From: Escherichia phage 2H10 | Sequence record: NC_049950.1 | Reading direction: 5' to 3' (one strand) | Length of the DNA: 46,288 nt | Shown here: piece by piece, positions 11,291-37,866 of the stretch | Position numbering within the stretch: the first letter of the stretch is position 1 | How the letters are laid out: every line of letters begins with the position of its first letter | Program-made: the position numbers and the translations under genes | The notes under the pieces: generated by a model | What the model was told of the DNA's origin: nothing | The model's database searches: none | The model's input: only the letters and a program-made list of their open reading frames with translations

Positions 11291-13832
11291 ACCGGTAGGC
11301 GATCTGGTCGTTGATTTGAGTCTGGATGCGGCCAGATTTGACGAGCAGATGGCCAGAGTCAGGCGTCATTTTTCCGGTACGGAAAGTGATGCGAAAAAAA
11401 CAGCGGCAGTCGTTGAACAGTCGCTGAGCCGACAGGCGCTGGCTGCACAGAAAGCGGGGATTTCCGTCGGGCAGTATAAAGCCGCCATGCGTATGCTGCC
11501 TGCACAGTTCACCGACGTGGCCACGCAGCTTGCAGGCGGGCAAAGTCCGTGGCTGATCCTGCTGCAACAGGGGGGGCAGGTGAAGGACTCCTTCGGCGGG
11601 ATGATCCCCATGTTCAGGGGGCTTGCCGGTGCGATCAACCTGCCGATGGTGGGGGCCACCTCGCTGGCGGTGGCGACCGGTGCGCTGGCGTATGCCTGGT
11701 ATCAGGGCAACTCAACCCTGTCCGATTTCAACAAAACGCTGGTCCTTTCCGGCAATCAGGCGGGACTGACGGCAGATCGTATGCTGGTCCTGTCCAGAGC
11801 CGGGCAGGCGGCAGGGCTGACGTTTAACCAGACCAGCGAGTCACTCAGCGCACTGGTTAAGGCGGGAGTAAGCGGTGAGGCTCAGATTGCATCCATCAGC
11901 CAGAGTGTGGCGCGTTTCTCCTCTGCATCCGGCGTGGAGGTGGACAAGGTCGCTGAAGCCTTCGGGAAGCTGACCACAGACCCGACGTCAGGGCTGACAG
12001 CGATGGCACGCCAGTTCCATAACGTGACGGCGGAGCAGATTGCGTATGTTGCTCAGTTGCAGCGTTCCGGCGATGAAGCCGGGGCATTGCAGGCGGCGAA
12101 CGAGGCCGCGACGAAAGGGTTTGATGACCAGACCCGCCGCCTGAAAGAGAACATGGGTACGCTGGAGACCTGGGCAGACAGGACAGCACGGGCATTCAAA
12201 TCCATGTGGGATGCGGTGCTGGATATTGGTCGTCCTGATACCGCTCAGGAGATGCTGATTAAGGCAGAGGCTGCGTTTAAGAAAGCGGACGACATCTGGA
12301 ATCTGCGCAAGGATGATTATTTTGTTAACGATGAAGCGCGGGCGCGTTACTGGGATGATCGTGAAAAGGCCCGTCTTGCGCTTGAAGCCGCCCGAAAGAA
12401 GGCTGAACAGCAGAGTCAACAGGACAAAAATGCGCAGCAGCAGAGCGATACCGAAGCATCACGGCTGAAATATACCGAAGAGGCGCAGAAGGCTTACGAA
12501 CGGCTGCAGACACCGCTGGAGAAATATACCGCCCGTCAGGAAGAACTGAACAAGGCACTGAAAGACGGGAAAATCCTGCAGGCAGATTACAACACGCTGA
12601 TGGCGGCGGCGAAAAAGGATTATGAAGCGACGCTGAAAAAGCCGAAACAGTCCGGCGTGAAGGTGTCTGCGGGCGATCGTCAGGAAGACAGTGCTCATGC
12701 TGCCCTGCTGACGCTTCAGGCAGAACTCCGGACGCTGGAGAAGCATGCCGGAGCGAATGAGAAAATCAGCCAGCAGCGCCGGGATTTGTGGAAGGCGGAA
12801 AATCAGTTCGCGGTACTGGAGGAGGCGGCACAACGTCGCCAGCTATCCGCACAGGAGAAATCCCTGCTGGCGCATAAAGATGAGACGCTGGAGTACAAAC
12901 GCCAGCTGGCTGTACTTGGCGATAAGGTCACGTATCAGGAGCACCTGAACGCGCTGGCGCAGCAGGCGGATAAGTTCGCACAGCAACAACGGGCAAAACG
13001 GGCAGCCATTGAGGCGAAAAACCGGGGGCTTACTGACCGGCAGGCAGCGCGGGACGCCACGGAACAGCGTCTGAAGGAGCAGTATGGCGATAATCCGCTG
13101 GCGCTGAATAACGTCATGTCAGAGCAGAAAAAGACCTGGGCAGCTGAAGACCTGCTTCGCGGGAGCTGGATGGCTGGCCTCAAGTCCGGCTGGAGTGAGT
13201 GGGAAGAGAGCGCCACGGACAGTATGTCGCAGGTAAAAAGTGCAGCCACGCAGACCTTTGATGGTATTGCACAGAATATGGCGGCGATGCTGACCGGCAG
13301 TGAACAGAACTGGCGCAGCTTCACCCGTTCCGTGCTGTCCATGATGACAGAAATTCTGCTTAAGCAGGCAATGGTGGGGATTGTCGGGAGTATCGGCAGC
13401 GCCATTGGCGGCGGCGCATCAGCGTCAGGCGGTACAGCCATTCAGGCAGCTGCGGCGAAATTCCATTTTGCGGCCGGAGGGTTTACGGGAACCGGCGGCA
13501 AATATGAGCCAGCGGGGATTGTTCACCGTGGTGAATTTGTCTTCACGAAGGAGGCAACCAGCCGGATTGGCGTAGGAAATCTTTACCGGCTGATGCGCGG
13601 CTATGCCACCGGCGGTTATGTCGGTACACCGGGCAGCATGGCGGACAGCCGGTCGCAGGCGTCCGGGACGTTTGAGCAGAATAACCATGTGGTGATTAAC
13701 AACGACGGCACGAACGGTCAGATAGGGCCACAGGCACTGAAGGCGGTTTATGACGTAGCCCGTAAGGCGGCAATGGATGTTGTGACCGGGCAGATGCGCG
13801 ATGGTGGTCTGTTCTCCGGAGGTGGACGATGA
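11283..13832 (+). CDS. H: tail tape measure protein H
   Basis: 849-aa product MAEPVGDLVVDLSLDAARFDEQMARVRRHF... recognised as lambda gpH, a few residues shorter than lambda. Confidence 0.96.
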   Translation: MAEPVGDLVVDLSLDAARFDEQMARVRRHFSGTESDAKKTAAVVEQSLSRQALAAQKAGISVGQYKAAMRMLPAQFTDVATQLAGGQSPWLILLQQGGQVKDSFGGMIPMFRGLAGAINLPMVGATSLAVATGALAYAWYQGNSTLSDFNKTLVLSGNQAGLTADRMLVLSRAGQAAGLTFNQTSESLSALVKAGVSGEAQIASISQSVARFSSASGVEVDKVAEAFGKLTTDPTSGLTAMARQFHNVTAEQIAYVAQLQRSGDEAGALQAANEAATKGFDDQTRRLKENMGTLETWADRTARAFKSMWDAVLDIGRPDTAQEMLIKAEAAFKKADDIWNLRKDDYFVNDEARARYWDDREKARLALEAARKKAEQQSQQDKNAQQQSDTEASRLKYTEEAQKAYERLQTPLEKYTARQEELNKALKDGKILQADYNTLMAAAKKDYEATLKKPKQSGVKVSAGDRQEDSAHAALLTLQAELRTLEKHAGANEKISQQRRDLWKAENQFAVLEEAAQRRQLSAQEKSLLAHKDETLEYKRQLAVLGDKVTYQEHLNALAQQADKFAQQQRAKRAAIEAKNRGLTDRQAARDATEQRLKEQYGDNPLALNNVMSEQKKTWAAEDLLRGSWMAGLKSGWSEWEESATDSMSQVKSAATQTFDGIAQNMAAMLTGSEQNWRSFTRSVLSMMTEILLKQAMVGIVGSIGSAIGGGASASGGTAIQAAAAKFHFAAGGFTGTGGKYEPAGIVHRGEFVFTKEATSRIGVGNLYRLMRGYATGGYVGTPGSMADSRSQASGTFEQNNHVVINNDGTNGQIGPQALKAVYDVARKAAMDVVTGQMRDGGLFSGGGR

Positions 13833-26201: not shown

Positions 26202-26450
26202 TTAGTGAACAAACCACTCGTCAGCAGACTCCCAGGTATCTTTCAGAGTTTCCTGAACAAAAGTTTTAGCTGAATCTTTATCGGCGGTGCGCGTAACAGA
26301 AAGGCCATCGTTGCTGGTGGCTTTTACGATCACCTCTACATCGTCATAACGCTTACTGATGCGTCGAGTTAATTCTTCCTTTAATGCATCCACAGCACCG
26401 TTTGGCATTTTAGTCATTTTCTCTTTGGCTATGCAGATCTCAATACGCAT
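26202..26450 (-). CDS. dinI: DinI-family protein (SOS-induced RecA modulator homolog)
   Basis: 82-aa product [12 protein letters not shown]...[15 protein letters not shown]...[11 protein letters not shown] closely resembles DinI/MsgA family; two LexA boxes in its promoter. Confidence 0.85.
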
Positions 26451-26465
26451 AAAAATCCCTCTACA

Positions 26466-26515
26466 CTGTGTTTGTATACAGTGTTATTTTTAACTGTATG
26501 AATAAACAGTGTCAA
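26466..26515 (-). promoter_or_regulatory. SOS-regulated promoter of the dinI-like gene with two LexA boxes
   Basis: Minus-strand TTGACA (26510-26515), 17-nt spacer, TAAAAA -10; CTGT-N8-ACAG boxes at 26494-26509 (inside the spacer) and 26466-26481 (between -10 and the ribosome-binding site). Confidence 0.75.
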
Positions 26516-26961
26516 TAGAACAAAGATTGCTGCATGTACAAATGTTCTTTGGCTACAAATACACCTACTGATCATGTTCTGCTATGCTCTGATACCTCCA
26601 AAATGTACAATCAGCGGCATGAATTTTTCTTTGTACATATGATTGTACATAATCAAAGAGACAACAATTATGACAAGCCTTTTGGCCGCAGAGGTAGCGA
26701 AAAGAAGAACCTTTGCAATTATTTCTCACCCCAATAATTAATCCCAAATTAAAGCTCTTTTACTCTTTCAAAATCCTTTCAGTTAATTGAGGTCTAGTTA
26801 TATAACTCATTTAAATACATATGGTTATGTGGCTTCTTTAATTGAAAATTCTTTCATGTAACTTTAAATCGATCAGGTTGCTTTCATCAAAAATCTGTAC
26901 ATATGCTTGTACATAATGTACAAAGCAGCAGAGGTGTTTTGCGATTTGTACAAGGTGAGTA

Positions 26962-28185
26962 ATGGCGCTGTCTGATGCGTGGTTGCGTTCAGTCGTTGGA
27001 AAGGAACGTGATAAGGTTTTGGTTAAATCCGATCGTGATGGTCTGTCTGTCAGAGTATCACCGAAAGGTCGCGTAGTGTTTCAATATCGTTATCAATGGG
27101 CAGGGAAAGGTGAGCGTCTTGATATCGGAACTTACCCGGCAACTGGATTAAAAGAGGCCAGAGAAGAAGTTATCCGTCTCCGTGGTGAACTCGAGTCAAA
27201 CCGTAATCCACGATTGGTCAAGCAGGCTGAAAAACGAAAAGCTACTGAAGCCATGACGGTAGAGTCTGTGATCCGTGCCTGGTATGAAGCATATTGTGTA
27301 AAAAATAAAAAGGGTTCTGAACAGATACTCCGCTCGTTTGAGCTGCACCTGTTCTCTAAAATCGGGAATATCCCTCACGATGCAGCTACATTGCATGATT
27401 GGTTAGAAGTCCTGGAGCCTCTTAGCACTAAGACTCCAGCAATAGCAGACCGATTGCTAATTAACGCAAAGCAGGCCCATGTCTGGGCGTATAAGAGAAA
27501 GCTTATTGAAACTCGCCCGCTGTCGGATATCACGGGTAAAGATATGGATATCCGTAAAGGTCAGAAGAAACGGTTTCTGACACACGATGAAATTAAAATT
27601 CTTTATGCTGCGATCGATGGCTCTAGAATGGTTCCCAAATACCGGGCCTTCATTAAACTATTACTGCATTTTGGTTGCCGTAGTTCGGAGCTAATTACTG
27701 CTAGGGTGGGTGATTTTGATTTCATAAATAAGGTATGGACTGTACCACCTGAACGACATAAGACAGGGGACATAACAGGCGAACCGCTAAAGCGGCCCAT
27801 TATTGAACCGGTTGAAGAGCTTATAAAATACGTTATCTCTATGAACAACGGTTCCGATATGCTTTTTACTAAGGAAGGAAGCAGGGAGCCAGTCGGTAGG
27901 ACATCATTACAGTCGCTGCCTTACAATTTAATGCAGTACGCGTGGCGGCGTTTAGGATATCAATTCCCTCATTGGTCTCTTCATGACTTGAGACGGACAG
28001 CACGAACAAATTTTTCTGATCTTACTGCGCCTCATATCGCAGAAATTATGCTTGGTCATAAGCTGCCAGGGGTATGGCAAGTTTATGATAAGAGCGATTA
28101 TCTAGAAGAACAGCGTAAAGCTTACCTGGCATGGTGGAAGAGGGTTGAATCGATTGTTAATTGTACTATCTCTGATTCAAACTGA
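26962..28185 (+). CDS. int: tyrosine integrase, P4-like family
   Basis: 407-aa product MALSDAWLRSVVGKERDKVLVKSDRDGLSVRVSPKGRVVFQYRYQWAGKGERLDIG... (P4-type arm-binding N-terminus) with C-terminal HxxR...Y catalytic region (HDLRRTARTNF...Y); AAGGTGAG ribosome-binding site. Confidence 0.9.
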   Translation: MALSDAWLRSVVGKERDKVLVKSDRDGLSVRVSPKGRVVFQYRYQWAGKGERLDIGTYPATGLKEAREEVIRLRGELESNRNPRLVKQAEKRKATEAMTVESVIRAWYEAYCVKNKKGSEQILRSFELHLFSKIGNIPHDAATLHDWLEVLEPLSTKTPAIADRLLINAKQAHVWAYKRKLIETRPLSDITGKDMDIRKGQKKRFLTHDEIKILYAAIDGSRMVPKYRAFIKLLLHFGCRSSELITARVGDFDFINKVWTVPPERHKTGDITGEPLKRPIIEPVEELIKYVISMNNGSDMLFTKEGSREPVGRTSLQSLPYNLMQYAWRRLGYQFPHWSLHDLRRTARTNFSDLTAPHIAEIMLGHKLPGVWQVYDKSDYLEEQRKAYLAWWKRVESIVNCTISDSN

Positions 28186-33225: not shown

Positions 33226-33900
33226 TTAGGCCTTTATTGTGTATCTTCTTGGTTTTCCCGAGAAAATCACTGTACCAATTATAGAGCAATTACCGTTAAT
33301 CTTAATGTAAGGCTCAGGCCAGTTTGGGTTTAATGCTTTGAGATAACGCTGTGTTCCATCTTCTATCAATCGCTTGAAGGTGGTTTCGCCTGTATCGTGC
33401 ATCAATGCAATAACGTCGTCACCGTGGCAGGCAGGGACTTCGGGATCAACAAAAATCATGTCTCCAGGGCGGTACTCATCAATCATTGAATCACCAATCA
33501 CCCGCAAGATATAAGTCATTTCGCCACAGGGTACAGGGCAGGGATACGTTTCTGCTGTGCTCAAATCAACCTCAGAATAGCCAACTTCTTTCCATGCTCC
33601 GGCCTGTACCCATGATATGACAGGGACTAACGTTATTTGTTTGTTAGTGATTGAAACATCAGGTTTTTTTGTGATGTTCGTTGTCTGGTGTTCTTGATCA
33701 AGCCATCCGACAGGCAGGTCGAAACATTTTTCGATGTGCCGTGCCATGCTGTCACCGATATTTTTAGTAGCGCCATCCCCCATAAACCTGCTGGTTTGGG
33801 TTGGCTCGCGATCAATCATGGTGGCAAAGGATGAATTTCCGCCAACACCATCTCTCAGTTTTCTGGCGTTAGACCGCCGGATGTCATGGATTGTTTTCAT
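33226..33900 (-). CDS. cI: CI-type prophage repressor with C-terminal S24 (LexA-like) autopeptidase domain
   Basis: 224-aa product; C-terminus ...LVPVISWVQAGAWKEV...RVIGDSMIDEYRPGDMIFVD...TTFKRL...INGNCSIIGTVIF shows the Ala-Gly cleavage site, GDSM catalytic Ser and Lys of S24 peptidases; divergent from cro. Confidence 0.88.
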   Translation of the reverse strand: MKTIHDIRRSNARKLRDGVGGNSSFATMIDREPTQTSRFMGDGATKNIGDSMARHIEKCFDLPVGWLDQEHQTTNITKKPDVSITNKQITLVPVISWVQAGAWKEVGYSEVDLSTAETYPCPVPCGEMTYILRVIGDSMIDEYRPGDMIFVDPEVPACHGDDVIALMHDTGETTFKRLIEDGTQRYLKALNPNWPEPYIKINGNCSIIGTVIFSGKPRRYTIKA

Positions 33901-34786: not shown

Positions 34787-35619
34787 ACAGTTTAACGGCA
34801 AATAACCGTTTGTCGCAACAGCTGGTGGTCAGTGTCGCTGAACACCTGTTGTTACGGCATGAATGCAGATTACCAAATCACCTGGCTGTAAGTAACCACA
34901 GAGAACTTTACCTGACTGTGGGGGGCGAGTTGTGCGGGAACTTAACCGCTGGTTTCGTGACGGAAGAGGGCTTTATGTCCATGTTATTCGTTGGGAACCA
35001 GAAACACAGCGCGTTATCTATCTTCGCAAAGACTACCCGCATGAGTGCTTTAGTCCTTTGTGGAAATTCAGGCGTGATTTTGTTGAGTGTGAAGGACCAC
35101 CAGCACATTGATTCTGCCATTCCGGGACGTTACACTGTTCAGGCACCTTATAAAGCGGGTGACGGGATTGGCGTCCTGGAAATGTTATCGGCGATATATG
35201 ACGCGCCAGCGTCTTTTTTATCGTCTGTGTCTGTGCACACCCAAATTATGGTGGGCTGGACGGGGGCACCGAAAGGTGCGCCGGTTTCCGATAACGCCGG
35301 TTACGCCAACCCCGTTCAGTTCACCACCAGCGAAATTGGCGTTTCCGGTGGTGAAGGTAATTCACTGTTATCGGAGGCTGCCATCATGGCTACTGTCCCA
35401 GCCCTCACTCGTCTGAATGATGAAGACTTACATAAACTCAGTTATGTAACAACTGCACTACGTGCTCTGCGCAAGGTAACTCTTTCGGATCCGCAGGCGC
35501 ATCAGGTTTTGGTAGAAACCCTTCTTAACTTGCAGGCTGAACGTATTCGTCTGGCGGATAAGGCTAATTTTCATATTCACCGTCTCCTGAATATCAGCGG
35601 AGGGCATCGTCATGCTTAA
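34783..35619 (+). CDS. hypothetical protein
   Basis: 278-aa ORF whose ATG overlaps the upstream stop (ATGA), suggesting translational coupling; no recognisable motif. Confidence 0.5.
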   Translation: MNSLTANNRLSQQLVVSVAEHLLLRHECRLPNHLAVSNHRELYLTVGGELCGNLTAGFVTEEGFMSMLFVGNQKHSALSIFAKTTRMSALVLCGNSGVILLSVKDHQHIDSAIPGRYTVQAPYKAGDGIGVLEMLSAIYDAPASFLSSVSVHTQIMVGWTGAPKGAPVSDNAGYANPVQFTTSEIGVSGGEGNSLLSEAAIMATVPALTRLNDEDLHKLSYVTTALRALRKVTLSDPQAHQVLVETLLNLQAERIRLADKANFHIHRLLNISGGHRHA

Positions 35620-36665: not shown

Positions 36666-37154
36666 ATGAGTCTTTTGAATGAAGTTCAGAAATTCATTGA
36701 AGCCCATCCGGGGTGTACTTCCGGAGACATTGCAGATGCTTTTGCAGGTTACTCACGGCAGCGCGTTCTGCAGTCAGCAAGCAAGTTACGTCAGAGTGGG
36801 CGTGTGGCTCACCGTTGTGAAGGAGATACACGCAGACATTTCCCGCGCCTGACTGAGAGAGCGCAGGAGCCGGAACCACAACCAGTTCGTGAAACCAGAC
36901 CTGTGCGCAATTTCTATGTCGGCACTAACGATCCCCGGGTAATTTTGTGCCTGACCCGCCAGGCTGAAGAACTGGAGTCCAGGGGCTTATACCGTCGTGC
37001 TGCAACTGTGTGGATGGCGGCATTCCGTGAAAGCCACTCCCAGTCAGAACGAAACAATTTTCTGGCGCGCCGTGAGCGGTGCTTACGGAAAAGCAGCAAG
37101 CGCGCTGTATCGGGTGATGAGTGGTATCTGTCAGGGAATTACGTGTGGGCTTAA
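36666..37154 (+). CDS. PerC-family transcriptional regulator-like protein
   Basis: 162-aa ORF containing EELESRGLYRRAATVWM, resembling the conserved PerC/Pch motif. Confidence 0.5.
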   Translation: MSLLNEVQKFIEAHPGCTSGDIADAFAGYSRQRVLQSASKLRQSGRVAHRCEGDTRRHFPRLTERAQEPEPQPVRETRPVRNFYVGTNDPRVILCLTRQAEELESRGLYRRAATVWMAAFRESHSQSERNNFLARRERCLRKSSKRAVSGDEWYLSGNYVWA

Positions 37155-37480
37155 TGACGACGTTAACTCAATGCCAGCAGCAGGTGCTGGATATGCTGAT
37201 TTCTTATCAGAAAGAACGTGGTTTCCCGCCAACCAATCAGGAGGTGGCAGCCATGCTGGGATACCGTTCGGTGAATGCAGCGGTGGAGCATCTTCGCGCA
37301 CTGGAGAAAAAAGGCGTCATCACGATAAAGCGTGGCGTGGCCCGGGGTATCACGCTTCATACCACAGTGAAGGACGACGACAGCGAGGCAGCCGGGATTA
37401 TCCGCGCACTGCTTGCCGGTGAGGAAAACGCCAGACTGCGTGCAGCCCACTGGTTACATGAGAGGGGCCTGAAAGTATGA
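37154..37480 (+). CDS. LexA DNA-binding-domain-only protein (no peptidase domain)
   Basis: 108-aa product MTTLTQCQQQVLDMLISYQKERGFPPTNQEVAAMLGYRSVNAAVEHLRALEKKGVITIKRGVARGITLH aligns by eye with the LexA N-terminal winged helix; TAATG overlap with upstream gene. Confidence 0.75.
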   Translation: MTTLTQCQQQVLDMLISYQKERGFPPTNQEVAAMLGYRSVNAAVEHLRALEKKGVITIKRGVARGITLHTTVKDDDSEAAGIIRALLAGEENARLRAAHWLHERGLKV

Positions 37481-37866
37481 AGCTGATCCTGCCTTTCCCG
37501 CCCAGCGTGAACACGTACTGGCGACACCCCAACAAAGGGGCGTTTGCTGGTAAGAGCCTGATAAGCGCGGCGGGGCGCAAATTCCAGAGCGCGGCGTGTG
37601 CAGCAATATTTGAGCAGTTACGTCGTCTGCCAAAACCAACGTCGGCACCTGCTTCAGTGGAGATCGTGTTGTTTCCTCCGGATAACCGGATCCGCGATCT
37701 GGACAACTATAACAAGGCGCTGTTTGACGCCCTGACCCACGCGGGTGTGTGGGAAGACGACAGTCAGGTGAAAAGAATGCTGGTGGAGTGGGGACCGGTT
37801 ATCCCGGAAGGGAAGGTCGAGATCACTATCAGTAAGTACGAGAAAACGGCGGGTGCAGCCGCCTGA
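37477..37866 (+). CDS. rusA: Holliday junction resolvase RusA
   Basis: 129-aa product MKLILPFPPSVNTYWRH...RDLDNYNKALFDALTHAGVWEDDSQV carries the RusA signature. Confidence 0.9.
   Translation: MKLILPFPPSVNTYWRHPNKGAFAGKSLISAAGRKFQSAACAAIFEQLRRLPKPTSAPASVEIVLFPPDNRIRDLDNYNKALFDALTHAGVWEDDSQVKRMLVEWGPVIPEGKVEITISKYEKTAGAAA

What the first reader, a model, noticed from the sequence alone, without database searches (positions are those of the whole stretch)
37154..37480. Phage-encoded LexA DNA-binding domain without the autopeptidase domain
The 108-aa product aligns by eye with the LexA N-terminal winged helix but stops before the S24 cleavage and catalytic region. Such a protein would be a non-cleavable potential occupant of SOS boxes. 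The same phage carries a LexA-box-controlled dinI-like gene and an S24-peptidase CI repressor, so the element appears to both sense and possibly rewire the host SOS response.
Basis: partly seen in the sequence, partly recalled or inferred. Interest (0 to 1): 0.5.

Follow-up and report, generated by a model that had tools for sequence, protein, structure and literature searches.

The report
Truncated LexA-like phage DNA-binding protein
This common prophage gene encodes the DNA-binding half of the bacterial DNA-damage repressor LexA joined to a short helical tail, with no self-cleaving domain; it could act as a damage-insensitive stand-in for LexA, but it is already annotated in databases and I found no experimental test of it.

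Summary
ORF 37154..37480 (+) encodes 108 aa with a complete LexA winged-helix domain: Pfam PF01726 E=3e-19, 51% identical to E. coli LexA residues 1-68, AF2 model 0.9 Å from 3JSO. It has no S24 peptidase domain.

It is not a bare domain. Residues 74-103 form a helical hairpin that is conserved and under purifying selection, down to relatives of about 40% identity.

The gene is not new. It is SfV orf42 / mEp460 gp46 / PHROG 362, sits in 2233 of 5426 complete E. coli genomes, and is usually over-annotated as 'LexA repressor'. I found no functional study.

Four of LexA's five base-contact residues are kept (S39, N41, A42, E45). E44 is replaced throughout the family.

The gene is always translationally coupled to rusA in the delayed-early operon. 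In Klebsiella/Enterobacter relatives the homologue lies in an operon led by a near-consensus SOS box: SOS box, dinI or recA, orf77, lexA-like, orf67, DUF968, Q (34/34 loci).

Best reading (about 0.4): an uncleavable, tail-dimerised LexA mimic that occupies SOS-type boxes during lytic growth. A gp6-like regulator with altered specificity and a RusA-module accessory remain open.

Interest is moderate.

The parts
37154..37480 (+). lexA-like gene, 108 aa (LexA DNA-binding domain plus helical tail, no S24 domain); end includes the stop codon
37154..37357 (+). residues 1-68: LexA-type winged helix-turn-helix
   Evidence: Pfam 1-65/65; 51% identity to E. coli LexA 1-68; 0.9 Å rmsd to 3jso_B
37271..37309 (+). 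residues 40-52: recognition helix (S39-V-N41-A42-A-V44-E45-H-L); LexA has S-P-N-A-A-E-E-H-L
37358..37372 (+). residues 69-73: flexible acidic linker (pLDDT below 50 at 71-74)
37373..37462 (+). residues 74-103: conserved helix-turn-helix hairpin (helices 74-87 and 93-103); presumed dimerisation or partner-binding module
36666..37154 (+). upstream PerC-family gene; its stop overlaps the lexA-like ATG (in relatives a dam gene lies between them)
37477..37866 (+). rusA (Holliday-junction resolvase); its ATG overlaps the lexA-like stop; invariant downstream partner in this clade
26202..26450 (-). dinI-like gene, candidate phage target of SOS-box binders
26464..26511 (.). two tandem SOS boxes (CACTGTGTTTGTATACAGTG and AACTGTATGAATAAACAGTG) in the dinI-like promoter
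33226..33900 (-). CI repressor with an S24 peptidase domain (the phage's RecA*-sensing switch)

Best explanation
The gene encodes a LexA-derived, sequence-specific DNA-binding protein that RecA* cannot inactivate, because it has no S24 domain. The cell is also unlikely to clear it the way it clears the natural LexA N-terminal fragment, because its C-terminus is different.

It is made as a delayed-early product of the pR operon, translationally coupled to the PerC-like gene and to rusA. It therefore appears only after infection or induction.

Two copies are proposed to be held together by the C-terminal helical hairpin, and perhaps by the NTD-NTD contacts LexA uses on DNA. The pair would then occupy CTGT-type (SOS-like) boxes. 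After SOS induction those boxes have been vacated by cleaved host LexA. The phage protein would re-repress SOS-controlled promoters: the phage's own dinI-like gene, host SOS genes, and LexA-controlled functions of rival elements.

Shown here: domain identity, absence of the protease domain, the constrained tail, operon position, and the SOS-linked context of homologues. Inferred: dimerisation, the DNA target, and the direction of regulation.
For: - Complete LexA wHTH with 51% identity and 0.9 Å rmsd to DNA-bound LexA.
- Of the base-contacting residues S39, N41, A42, E44 and E45 (PMC3091678), S39, N41, A42 and E45 are kept.
- Every invariant residue of the family is also the LexA residue: L4, Q8, P26, E30, S39, L50, K53, R64, G65, I66.
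- The free LexA NTD retains SOS-box binding and repression and must be degraded by ClpXP (PMC10584840).
- The NTDs form an interface on the operator (PMC3159453).
- The tail is a conserved hairpin under purifying selection.
- In Klebsiella/Enterobacter relatives (39-50% identity) the homologue lies in an operon headed by a terminator and a promoter overlapped by a near-consensus SOS box, next to dinI or a full recA (34/34 loci).
- ACTGT-N8-ACAGT is the only conserved palindrome in those loci (10/11 against a null maximum of 4).
- The window phage carries two SOS boxes at dinI.
Against: - E44 is never kept in the family; it is V, A, T, F, Y or L.
- E45 is L or T in several sister-clade members, although their upstream SOS boxes remain canonical. 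Those boxes are therefore most simply host-LexA sites.
- P0088 and P0201 also differ at residues 42 and 45.
- There is no SOS box within 4 kb of the gene in the window's clade.
- Dimerisation through the tail is inferred only from a monomer model.
- GIL01 gp6 shows that truncated LexA homologues can switch site and act as activators.
- No experimental paper was found.
Confidence: 0.4

Rival explanations
1. A phage-specific transcription factor whose LexA-derived domain has drifted to a different operator. Like GIL01 gp6, it would switch a phage promoter on or off (for example late or moron genes) rather than sit on SOS boxes.
For: gp6 is a DBD-only LexA homologue that binds GaCACAnnTGTGaC and activates the late promoter P3 (PMC6182141). 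The recognition helix differs from LexA at position 44 in every member and at 42/45 in some. The protein diverges faster (39-50% identity) than the adjacent RusA (66-85%), as expected for specificity diversification. PHROG 362 is filed under transcription regulation.
Against: No conserved palindrome other than the SOS box was found within about 4 kb in either clade; the remaining candidates were coding-sequence homology or terminators. In the window, CTGT-Nk-ACAG is enriched only at k=8. S39, N41, A42 and E45 are retained in the window protein. gp6 gives no BLASTP alignment with it, so gp6 is an analogue and not a relative.
Confidence: 0.25
2. An accessory of the RusA/DUF968 DNA-processing module: a DNA-binding or partner-binding subunit that targets, tempers or times Holliday-junction resolution, with the tail contacting RusA or a neighbouring protein.
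For: rusA lies immediately downstream with a 4-nt overlap in 164/166 IMG/VR loci by phmmer, and by Pfam in the other two, and in all lineages at 40-50% identity. The adjacency holds across two very different RusA subfamilies. DUF968 (HNH-like) and Q always follow. The tail is at least as conserved as the recognition helix.
Against: Many sister-clade loci have lexA-like, orf67 and DUF968 with no rusA at all (L170, L179-L200). In L173 an opposite-strand ORF separates the two genes. From my own knowledge, untested here: rusA occurs in many phages without this gene (DLP12, phage 82). No interaction could be modelled with the tools available.
Confidence: 0.15
3. A protein-level SOS modulator. The tail, which aligns weakly with LexA's hinge and cleavage-site region, would dock on RecA*, LexA or the phage CI S24 domain as a pseudo-substrate or partner, with DNA binding secondary.
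For: HMM alignments extend to LexA residues 86-91 and include 'AGE'. Neighbours in the sister clade are RecA-filament modulators (dinI, recA). There is a precedent for a small phage protein binding LexA: gp7 (PMC6182141).
Against: The AG dipeptide is not conserved. The tail is predicted helical, whereas, from my own recollection of the LexA crystal structures, the LexA cleavage region is a strand-loop. BLASTP finds no tail similarity to LexA.
Confidence: 0.08
4. A decaying, functionless remnant of a captured lexA gene.
For: It is truncated relative to LexA, and annotation pipelines treat it as LexA.
Against: dN/dS is 0.05-0.2 in both the domain and the tail. The architecture is conserved down to 40% identity in many lineages. 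The gene is present in 41% of complete E. coli genomes. Its translational coupling is preserved.
Confidence: 0.02

Closest known systems
E. coli LexA (SOS repressor, MEROPS S24)
   Same: The N-terminal winged helix is 51% identical and 0.9 Å rmsd. Recognition-helix residues S39, N41, A42, E45, H46 and L47 and the wing R64-G65-I66 are conserved.
   Different: There is no S24 catalytic/dimerisation domain, no conserved A-G cleavage site, and E44 is V. A 35-aa helical hairpin replaces the C-terminal domain. It scores below the NCBIfam lexA cutoff.
LexA N-terminal cleavage fragment (residues 1-84)
   Same: A LexA DNA-binding domain without the dimerisation/protease domain. The natural fragment still binds SOS boxes and represses (PMC10584840).
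   Different: The natural fragment exposes a ClpX degron and is cleared. The phage protein ends in ...ERGLKV after a structured tail, so it may be stable and dimeric (inference).
Bacillus phage GIL01 gp6 (truncated LexA homologue, activator of late promoter P3)
   Same: A phage-encoded LexA DNA-binding domain with no peptidase, in a phage whose circuitry uses host LexA and SOS boxes. The sister-clade operons here are also SOS-box controlled.
   Different: gp6 is 66 aa with no helical tail. It derives from a Gram-positive LexA and gives no BLASTP alignment with the window protein. It binds a non-LexA palindrome and activates. Nothing of this kind has been shown for the window protein.
PHROG 362 / SfV orf42 / mEp460 gp46 / 'LexA family transcriptional regulator' of Stx2, SfII, SfIV and cdtI phages
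   Same: The same gene at 93-100% protein identity, in the same position upstream of rusA.
   Different: In most of these phages a dam methyltransferase gene precedes it. Here the PerC-like gene abuts it directly.

Membership tests
LexA (SOS repressor, TIGR00498 equivalog) | N-terminal LexA-type winged helix-turn-helix | tested here: met
   PF01726 1-65/65, E=3.4e-19; 3jso_B rmsd 0.9 Å
LexA (SOS repressor, TIGR00498 equivalog) | C-terminal S24 peptidase/dimerisation domain with the Ser119/Lys156 dyad | tested here: not met
   The protein ends at residue 108; no PF00717 hit; TIGR00498 scores 67.6 bits against a cutoff of 110.95 and matches only model positions 1-91
LexA (SOS repressor, TIGR00498 equivalog) | Conserved Ala-Gly self-cleavage site | tested here: not met
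   A88-G89 is present in the window protein but replaced by AN, VG, TR or DD in relatives; the region is predicted helical
LexA (SOS repressor, TIGR00498 equivalog) | Binds CTGT-N8-ACAG SOS boxes | not testable with these tools
   Only indirect evidence: 4 of 5 contact residues are kept, E44 is V
PHROG 362 / PF01726-only phage proteins | Full-length match to the family profile (wHTH plus tail, about 106 aa) | tested here: met
   phrog_362 E=3.5e-58, 1-108 against 1-106/106; alignments A1 and A2
PHROG 362 / PF01726-only phage proteins | Position in the delayed-early (nin) region directly upstream of rusA | tested here: met
GIL01 gp6-type truncated LexA activator | Sequence homology to gp6 | tested here: not met
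   BLASTP finds no alignment at E<=100
GIL01 gp6-type truncated LexA activator | LexA DBD without a peptidase domain, encoded by a temperate phage | tested here: met
GIL01 gp6-type truncated LexA activator | Binds a non-LexA palindrome at -43.5 and activates a late promoter | tested here: inconclusive
   No conserved non-SOS palindrome was found near the gene in either clade; activity cannot be tested in silico

The most novel reading that the evidence does not exclude
The family is the uncleavable-repressor arm of a phage-borne SOS-reset cassette. In Klebsiella/Enterobacter prophages a host-LexA-repressed promoter drives dinI or recA, orf77, lexA-like, orf67, DUF968 and Q. DNA damage would then fire a CI-independent route to late genes, and the damage-insensitive LexA mimic (together with DinI) would close the SOS window again. 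In E. coli, Shigella and Stx phages, including this one, the cassette is split, with dinI and its SOS boxes near attP and the lexA-like gene in the nin region. Because 41% of complete E. coli genomes carry the gene, it would reshape SOS dynamics, Stx-phage induction and competition between prophages.
Probability: 0.25. Interest if true: 0.7.

Novelty: new variant of a known kind. Interest (0 to 1): 0.4.

Why it matters
If the protein does occupy SOS boxes, nearly half of E. coli strains, including Shiga-toxin phage lysogens, carry a LexA paralogue that RecA* cannot remove. That would affect how long the SOS response lasts after prophage induction. It would also affect mutagenesis and filamentation, toxin-phage output, and whether co-resident LexA-controlled elements fire. 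On the practical side, genome pipelines currently label this 108-aa protein 'LexA repressor' or even 'RecA-mediated autopeptidase', which is wrong and can mislead SOS-regulon analyses. The experiments needed are simple: EMSA, a lexA(Def) reporter and a deletion phage.

Tried and rejected
- **Vestigial cleavage site.** I tested whether the tail is a remnant of the LexA cleavage site. The AG dipeptide is not conserved and the region is helical. Rejected.
- **Alternative operators.** I looked for other candidate operators. CTGT-Nk-ACAG and ACAG-Nk-CTGT for k=0-20 are enriched only at k=8. All 5-mer palindromes with 0-12 spacers across 11 and 8 non-redundant loci gave only the SOS box in clade B; everything else was RusA coding homology or terminators.
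- **Extra boxes in the window.** The perfect CTGT-N8-ACAG boxes at 13335 (tape-measure gene) and 34886 (Ash-family ORF) score below 9 on the SOS weight matrix and lie in coding sequence. They are probably chance.
- **Homology to gp6.** None.
- **Literature.** Six searches found no functional work on SfV orf42, PHROG 362 or the enterobacterial family. The DRT4 'phage DNA-binding protein' paper is unrelated. Zhang et al. 2010 is not held.
- **PADLOC.** Only weak generic wHTH hits.
- **Scans that gave little.** The search for related loci with the broad alignment failed. The P0201 viral scan found nothing. The single genome-contig scan returned mostly host lexA genes, and only three true relatives, in Klebsiella and Enterobacter.
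- **Local signals.** No promoter or terminator was found just upstream of the gene on the + strand.
- **Caveat on the SOS matrix.** The weight matrix was built from 21 E. coli boxes recalled from memory. The box sequences themselves are printed.

Full report
**What is there.** The window is a complete lambdoid phage genome: terminase and structural genes, then integrase, early genes and lysis genes. It is about 97% identical in this region to mEp460, SfV and Stx2a/Stx2c phages. ORF 37154..37480 (+) encodes 108 aa. Its ATG shares a base with the TAA of the upstream PerC-family ORF (36666..37154). Its TGA overlaps the ATG of rusA (37477..37866). No promoter or terminator consensus lies just upstream on the + strand. 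The gene is therefore an internal cistron of the delayed-early pR transcript, which runs from the replication gene through PerC-like, lexA-like, rusA, KilA-N and DUF968 to Q.

**Checking the observation.** Pfam LexA_DNA_bind matches end to end (1-65/65, E=3.4e-19), and there is no Peptidase_S24 hit. BLASTP against E. coli LexA gives 35/68 identities over residues 1-68 (E=2e-21) and nothing beyond. phmmer against PDB finds only LexA structures. An AF2 model (pLDDT 81.8) superposes on DNA-bound LexA (3jso_B) at 0.9 Å over 68 residues. The NCBIfam lexA equivalog model scores 67.6 bits against a cutoff of 110.95, so this is not a LexA orthologue. The two side claims also hold. CI (33226..33900, -) has an S24 peptidase domain. 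The 82-aa DinI-family gene (26202..26450, -) has two perfect CTGT-N8-ACAG boxes 16 and 44 bp upstream of its ATG. Such boxes are enriched in the window, 4 against 0.47 expected.

- The protein is not a bare domain. After a low-confidence acidic linker (residues 69-73), residues 74-87 and 93-103 are predicted as a helical hairpin.
- The same hairpin is predicted for a 46%-identical relative from another clade.
- A search of 1.84 billion representative proteins found relatives at 40-55% identity that align over both the domain and the tail. Their alignment shows a conserved pattern, EA..IRALLAG...AR.RA..WL...G.
- dN/dS is as low in the tail as in the domain: 0.19 against 0.20 in one lineage, and 0.06 against 0.02 in the window lineage.
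- HMM alignments extend into LexA's hinge and place A88-G89 opposite LexA's A84-G85 scissile bond. That dipeptide is not conserved in the family (AN, VG, TR, DD) and the segment is helical. I do not read it as a cleavage site.
- A two-helix hairpin is not a stable fold on its own. It most likely pairs with a second copy or with a partner protein. This is inference only; a dimer could not be modelled.

**DNA-reading residues.**
- The LexA residues reported to contact bases are S39, N41, A42, E44 and E45 (PMC3091678).
- The window protein has S39, N41, A42, V44 and E45.
- Across the tail-bearing family S39 is invariant and N41 nearly so. All ten invariant positions carry the E. coli LexA residue, including the wing R64-G65-I66.
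- Position 44 is never glutamate.
- In the sister clade E45 is often L or T.
- Two members differ at residues 42 and 45.
- So the window protein is the kind of member most likely to read CTGT, but specificity is probably not uniform across the family.

**How common and how well known it is.**
- The 327-bp gene is present at 90% identity or more in 2233 of 5426 complete E. coli genomes, with up to four copies. PGAP calls it 'LexA repressor'.
- In phage records it is SfV orf42, mEp460 gp46, and the 'LexA-like' or 'repressor, lexA family' gene of SfII, SfIV, cdtI, Stx2a, Stx2c and Stx2k phages.
- It is PHROG 362, 'transcriptional repressor'.
- Six full-text searches found no functional study.

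**Genomic context.**
- In 166 of 166 IMG/VR loci from two lineages, and in every independent lineage at 40-50% identity that I looked up, rusA follows immediately, usually with a 4-nt overlap. DUF968 and Q lie further downstream.
- The upstream neighbour varies: PerC, Dam, a C5-methylase or a replication protein.
- The LexA-like protein diverges faster (39-50% identity) than RusA type 1 (66-85%). The adjacency also holds for a second, very different RusA subfamily.

**A second context that ties the family to the SOS system.**
- In prophages of Klebsiella and Enterobacter and related viral contigs, the homologue lies in a separate operon. A rho-independent terminator and a sigma-70-like promoter precede it, and the promoter's -10/+1 region is overlapped by a near-consensus SOS box such as TACTGTTTATATATACAGTG.
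- The gene order is: SOS box; then dinI-like, a full-length RecA homologue or nothing; then a 77-aa ORF (phrog_1813); lexA-like; a 67-aa ORF (phrog_1212); rusA type 2 or nothing; DUF968; Q.
- All 34 loci with enough upstream sequence have the box. Many of these are close relatives, so they represent roughly eight to ten distinct lineages.
- ACTGT-N8-ACAGT is the only palindrome conserved across 11 non-redundant loci (10/11; shuffled maximum 4).
- In the window's clade no SOS box lies within 4 kb of the gene. These phages do carry SOS boxes on morons elsewhere: dinI here and in mEp390, and a methyltransferase gene in SfV and mEp460.

**Mechanism.**
- The LexA N-terminal fragment released by cleavage still binds SOS boxes and represses, which is why ClpXP must remove it (PMC10584840).
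- On the operator the two LexA N-terminal domains form an extensive interface that stabilises the dimer (PMC3159453).
- The phage protein lacks both the RecA*-responsive domain and the C-terminus that cleavage exposes.

My best reading (confidence about 0.4) is an uncleavable LexA mimic, dimerised by its tail, that occupies SOS-type boxes once host LexA has been destroyed. It would shut down the phage dinI-like gene and host or rival SOS-controlled promoters during lytic growth. In the sister clade it would feed back on its own SOS-box operon.

Against this reading:
- The family-wide loss of E44.
- E45 variability beside unchanged SOS boxes.
- The absence of any binding data.
- The precedent of GIL01 gp6, a DBD-only LexA homologue that binds a different palindrome and activates a late promoter (PMC6182141). 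gp6 has no detectable sequence similarity to this protein, so it is an analogue and not a relative.

**Rivals.**
- A gp6-like regulator with a private operator (0.25). No candidate operator was found.
- An accessory of the RusA/DUF968 module (0.15). The synteny supports it, but many sister-clade loci lack rusA.
- A protein-level SOS modulator acting through the tail (0.08).
- A dead remnant (0.02). The selection analysis contradicts this.

**Verdict.** The gene itself is common and already annotated, though over-annotated. What this analysis adds is the conserved hairpin tail, the E44 signature, the strict coupling to rusA, and the SOS-box-driven dinI/recA/lexA-like/Q operon in relatives. I rate it a new variant of a known kind (phage-encoded truncated LexA homologues), of moderate interest.

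Noticed in passing
window 26662-26730 (next to integrase 26962..28185): A short ORF begins MTSLLAAEVAKRRTFAIISHP. From memory this resembles the N-terminus of host PrfC, which suggests the phage integrates into prfC and supplies a replacement 5' end.
   Followed up: no
window 37150-37156, compared with L001 4555-5208 (mEp460): Most relatives carry a dam (N6-adenine methyltransferase) gene of about 650 bp between the PerC-like and lexA-like genes. It is absent here, so the two genes abut.
   Followed up: partly
L006 4500-7413; L009 4500-7195; L170; L171; L174-L200; L207-L209; L213-L215: Klebsiella/Enterobacter prophages have an SOS-box-controlled operon: dinI or a full RecA homologue, phrog_1813 (77 aa), lexA-like, phrog_1212 (67 aa), rusA or nothing, DUF968, Q. 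This implies host-LexA-controlled expression of the late antiterminator. The two small ORFs have no known function.
   Followed up: partly
L006 4580-4712; L009 4581-4723: An untranslated leader of about 130-145 nt lies between the SOS-box promoter and the first ORF of that operon. It was not examined for RNA structure.
   Followed up: no
L001 750-769 (mEp460); L001 9801-9820; L210 34170-34189 (SfV): A near-consensus SOS box lies inside the mEp460 cI (XRE/S24) coding region. Another lies at the annotated start of the DNA methyltransferase gene downstream of Q in both mEp460 and SfV.
   Followed up: no
proteins P0128, P0138, P0152, P0159, P0161 (locus L293 for P0159): These proteins of about 160-220 aa have two tandem LexA_DNA_bind domains and no S24 domain. 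[quoted passage not shown]
   Followed up: partly
window 13335-13350 and 34886-34901: Two further perfect CTGT-N8-ACAG matches lie inside coding sequence (tape-measure gene and Ash-family ORF). Their spacers are GC-rich and their SOS matrix scores are low, so they are probably chance.
   Followed up: partly
RefSeq E. coli genomes (e.g. NZ_CP012376.1 2427144-2427470); phage cdtI AB285204.1 39112-39435: The 108-aa protein is annotated 'LexA repressor', 'SOS-response repressor and protease LexA' or 'RecA-mediated autopeptidases', although it has no peptidase domain.
   Followed up: yes
L211 20396-21308 (mEp390): A relative phage carries dinI and a UmuD-like (HumD) gene divergently around an SOS box, in addition to its lexA-like gene. 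This is another cluster of SOS-related morons.
   Followed up: no
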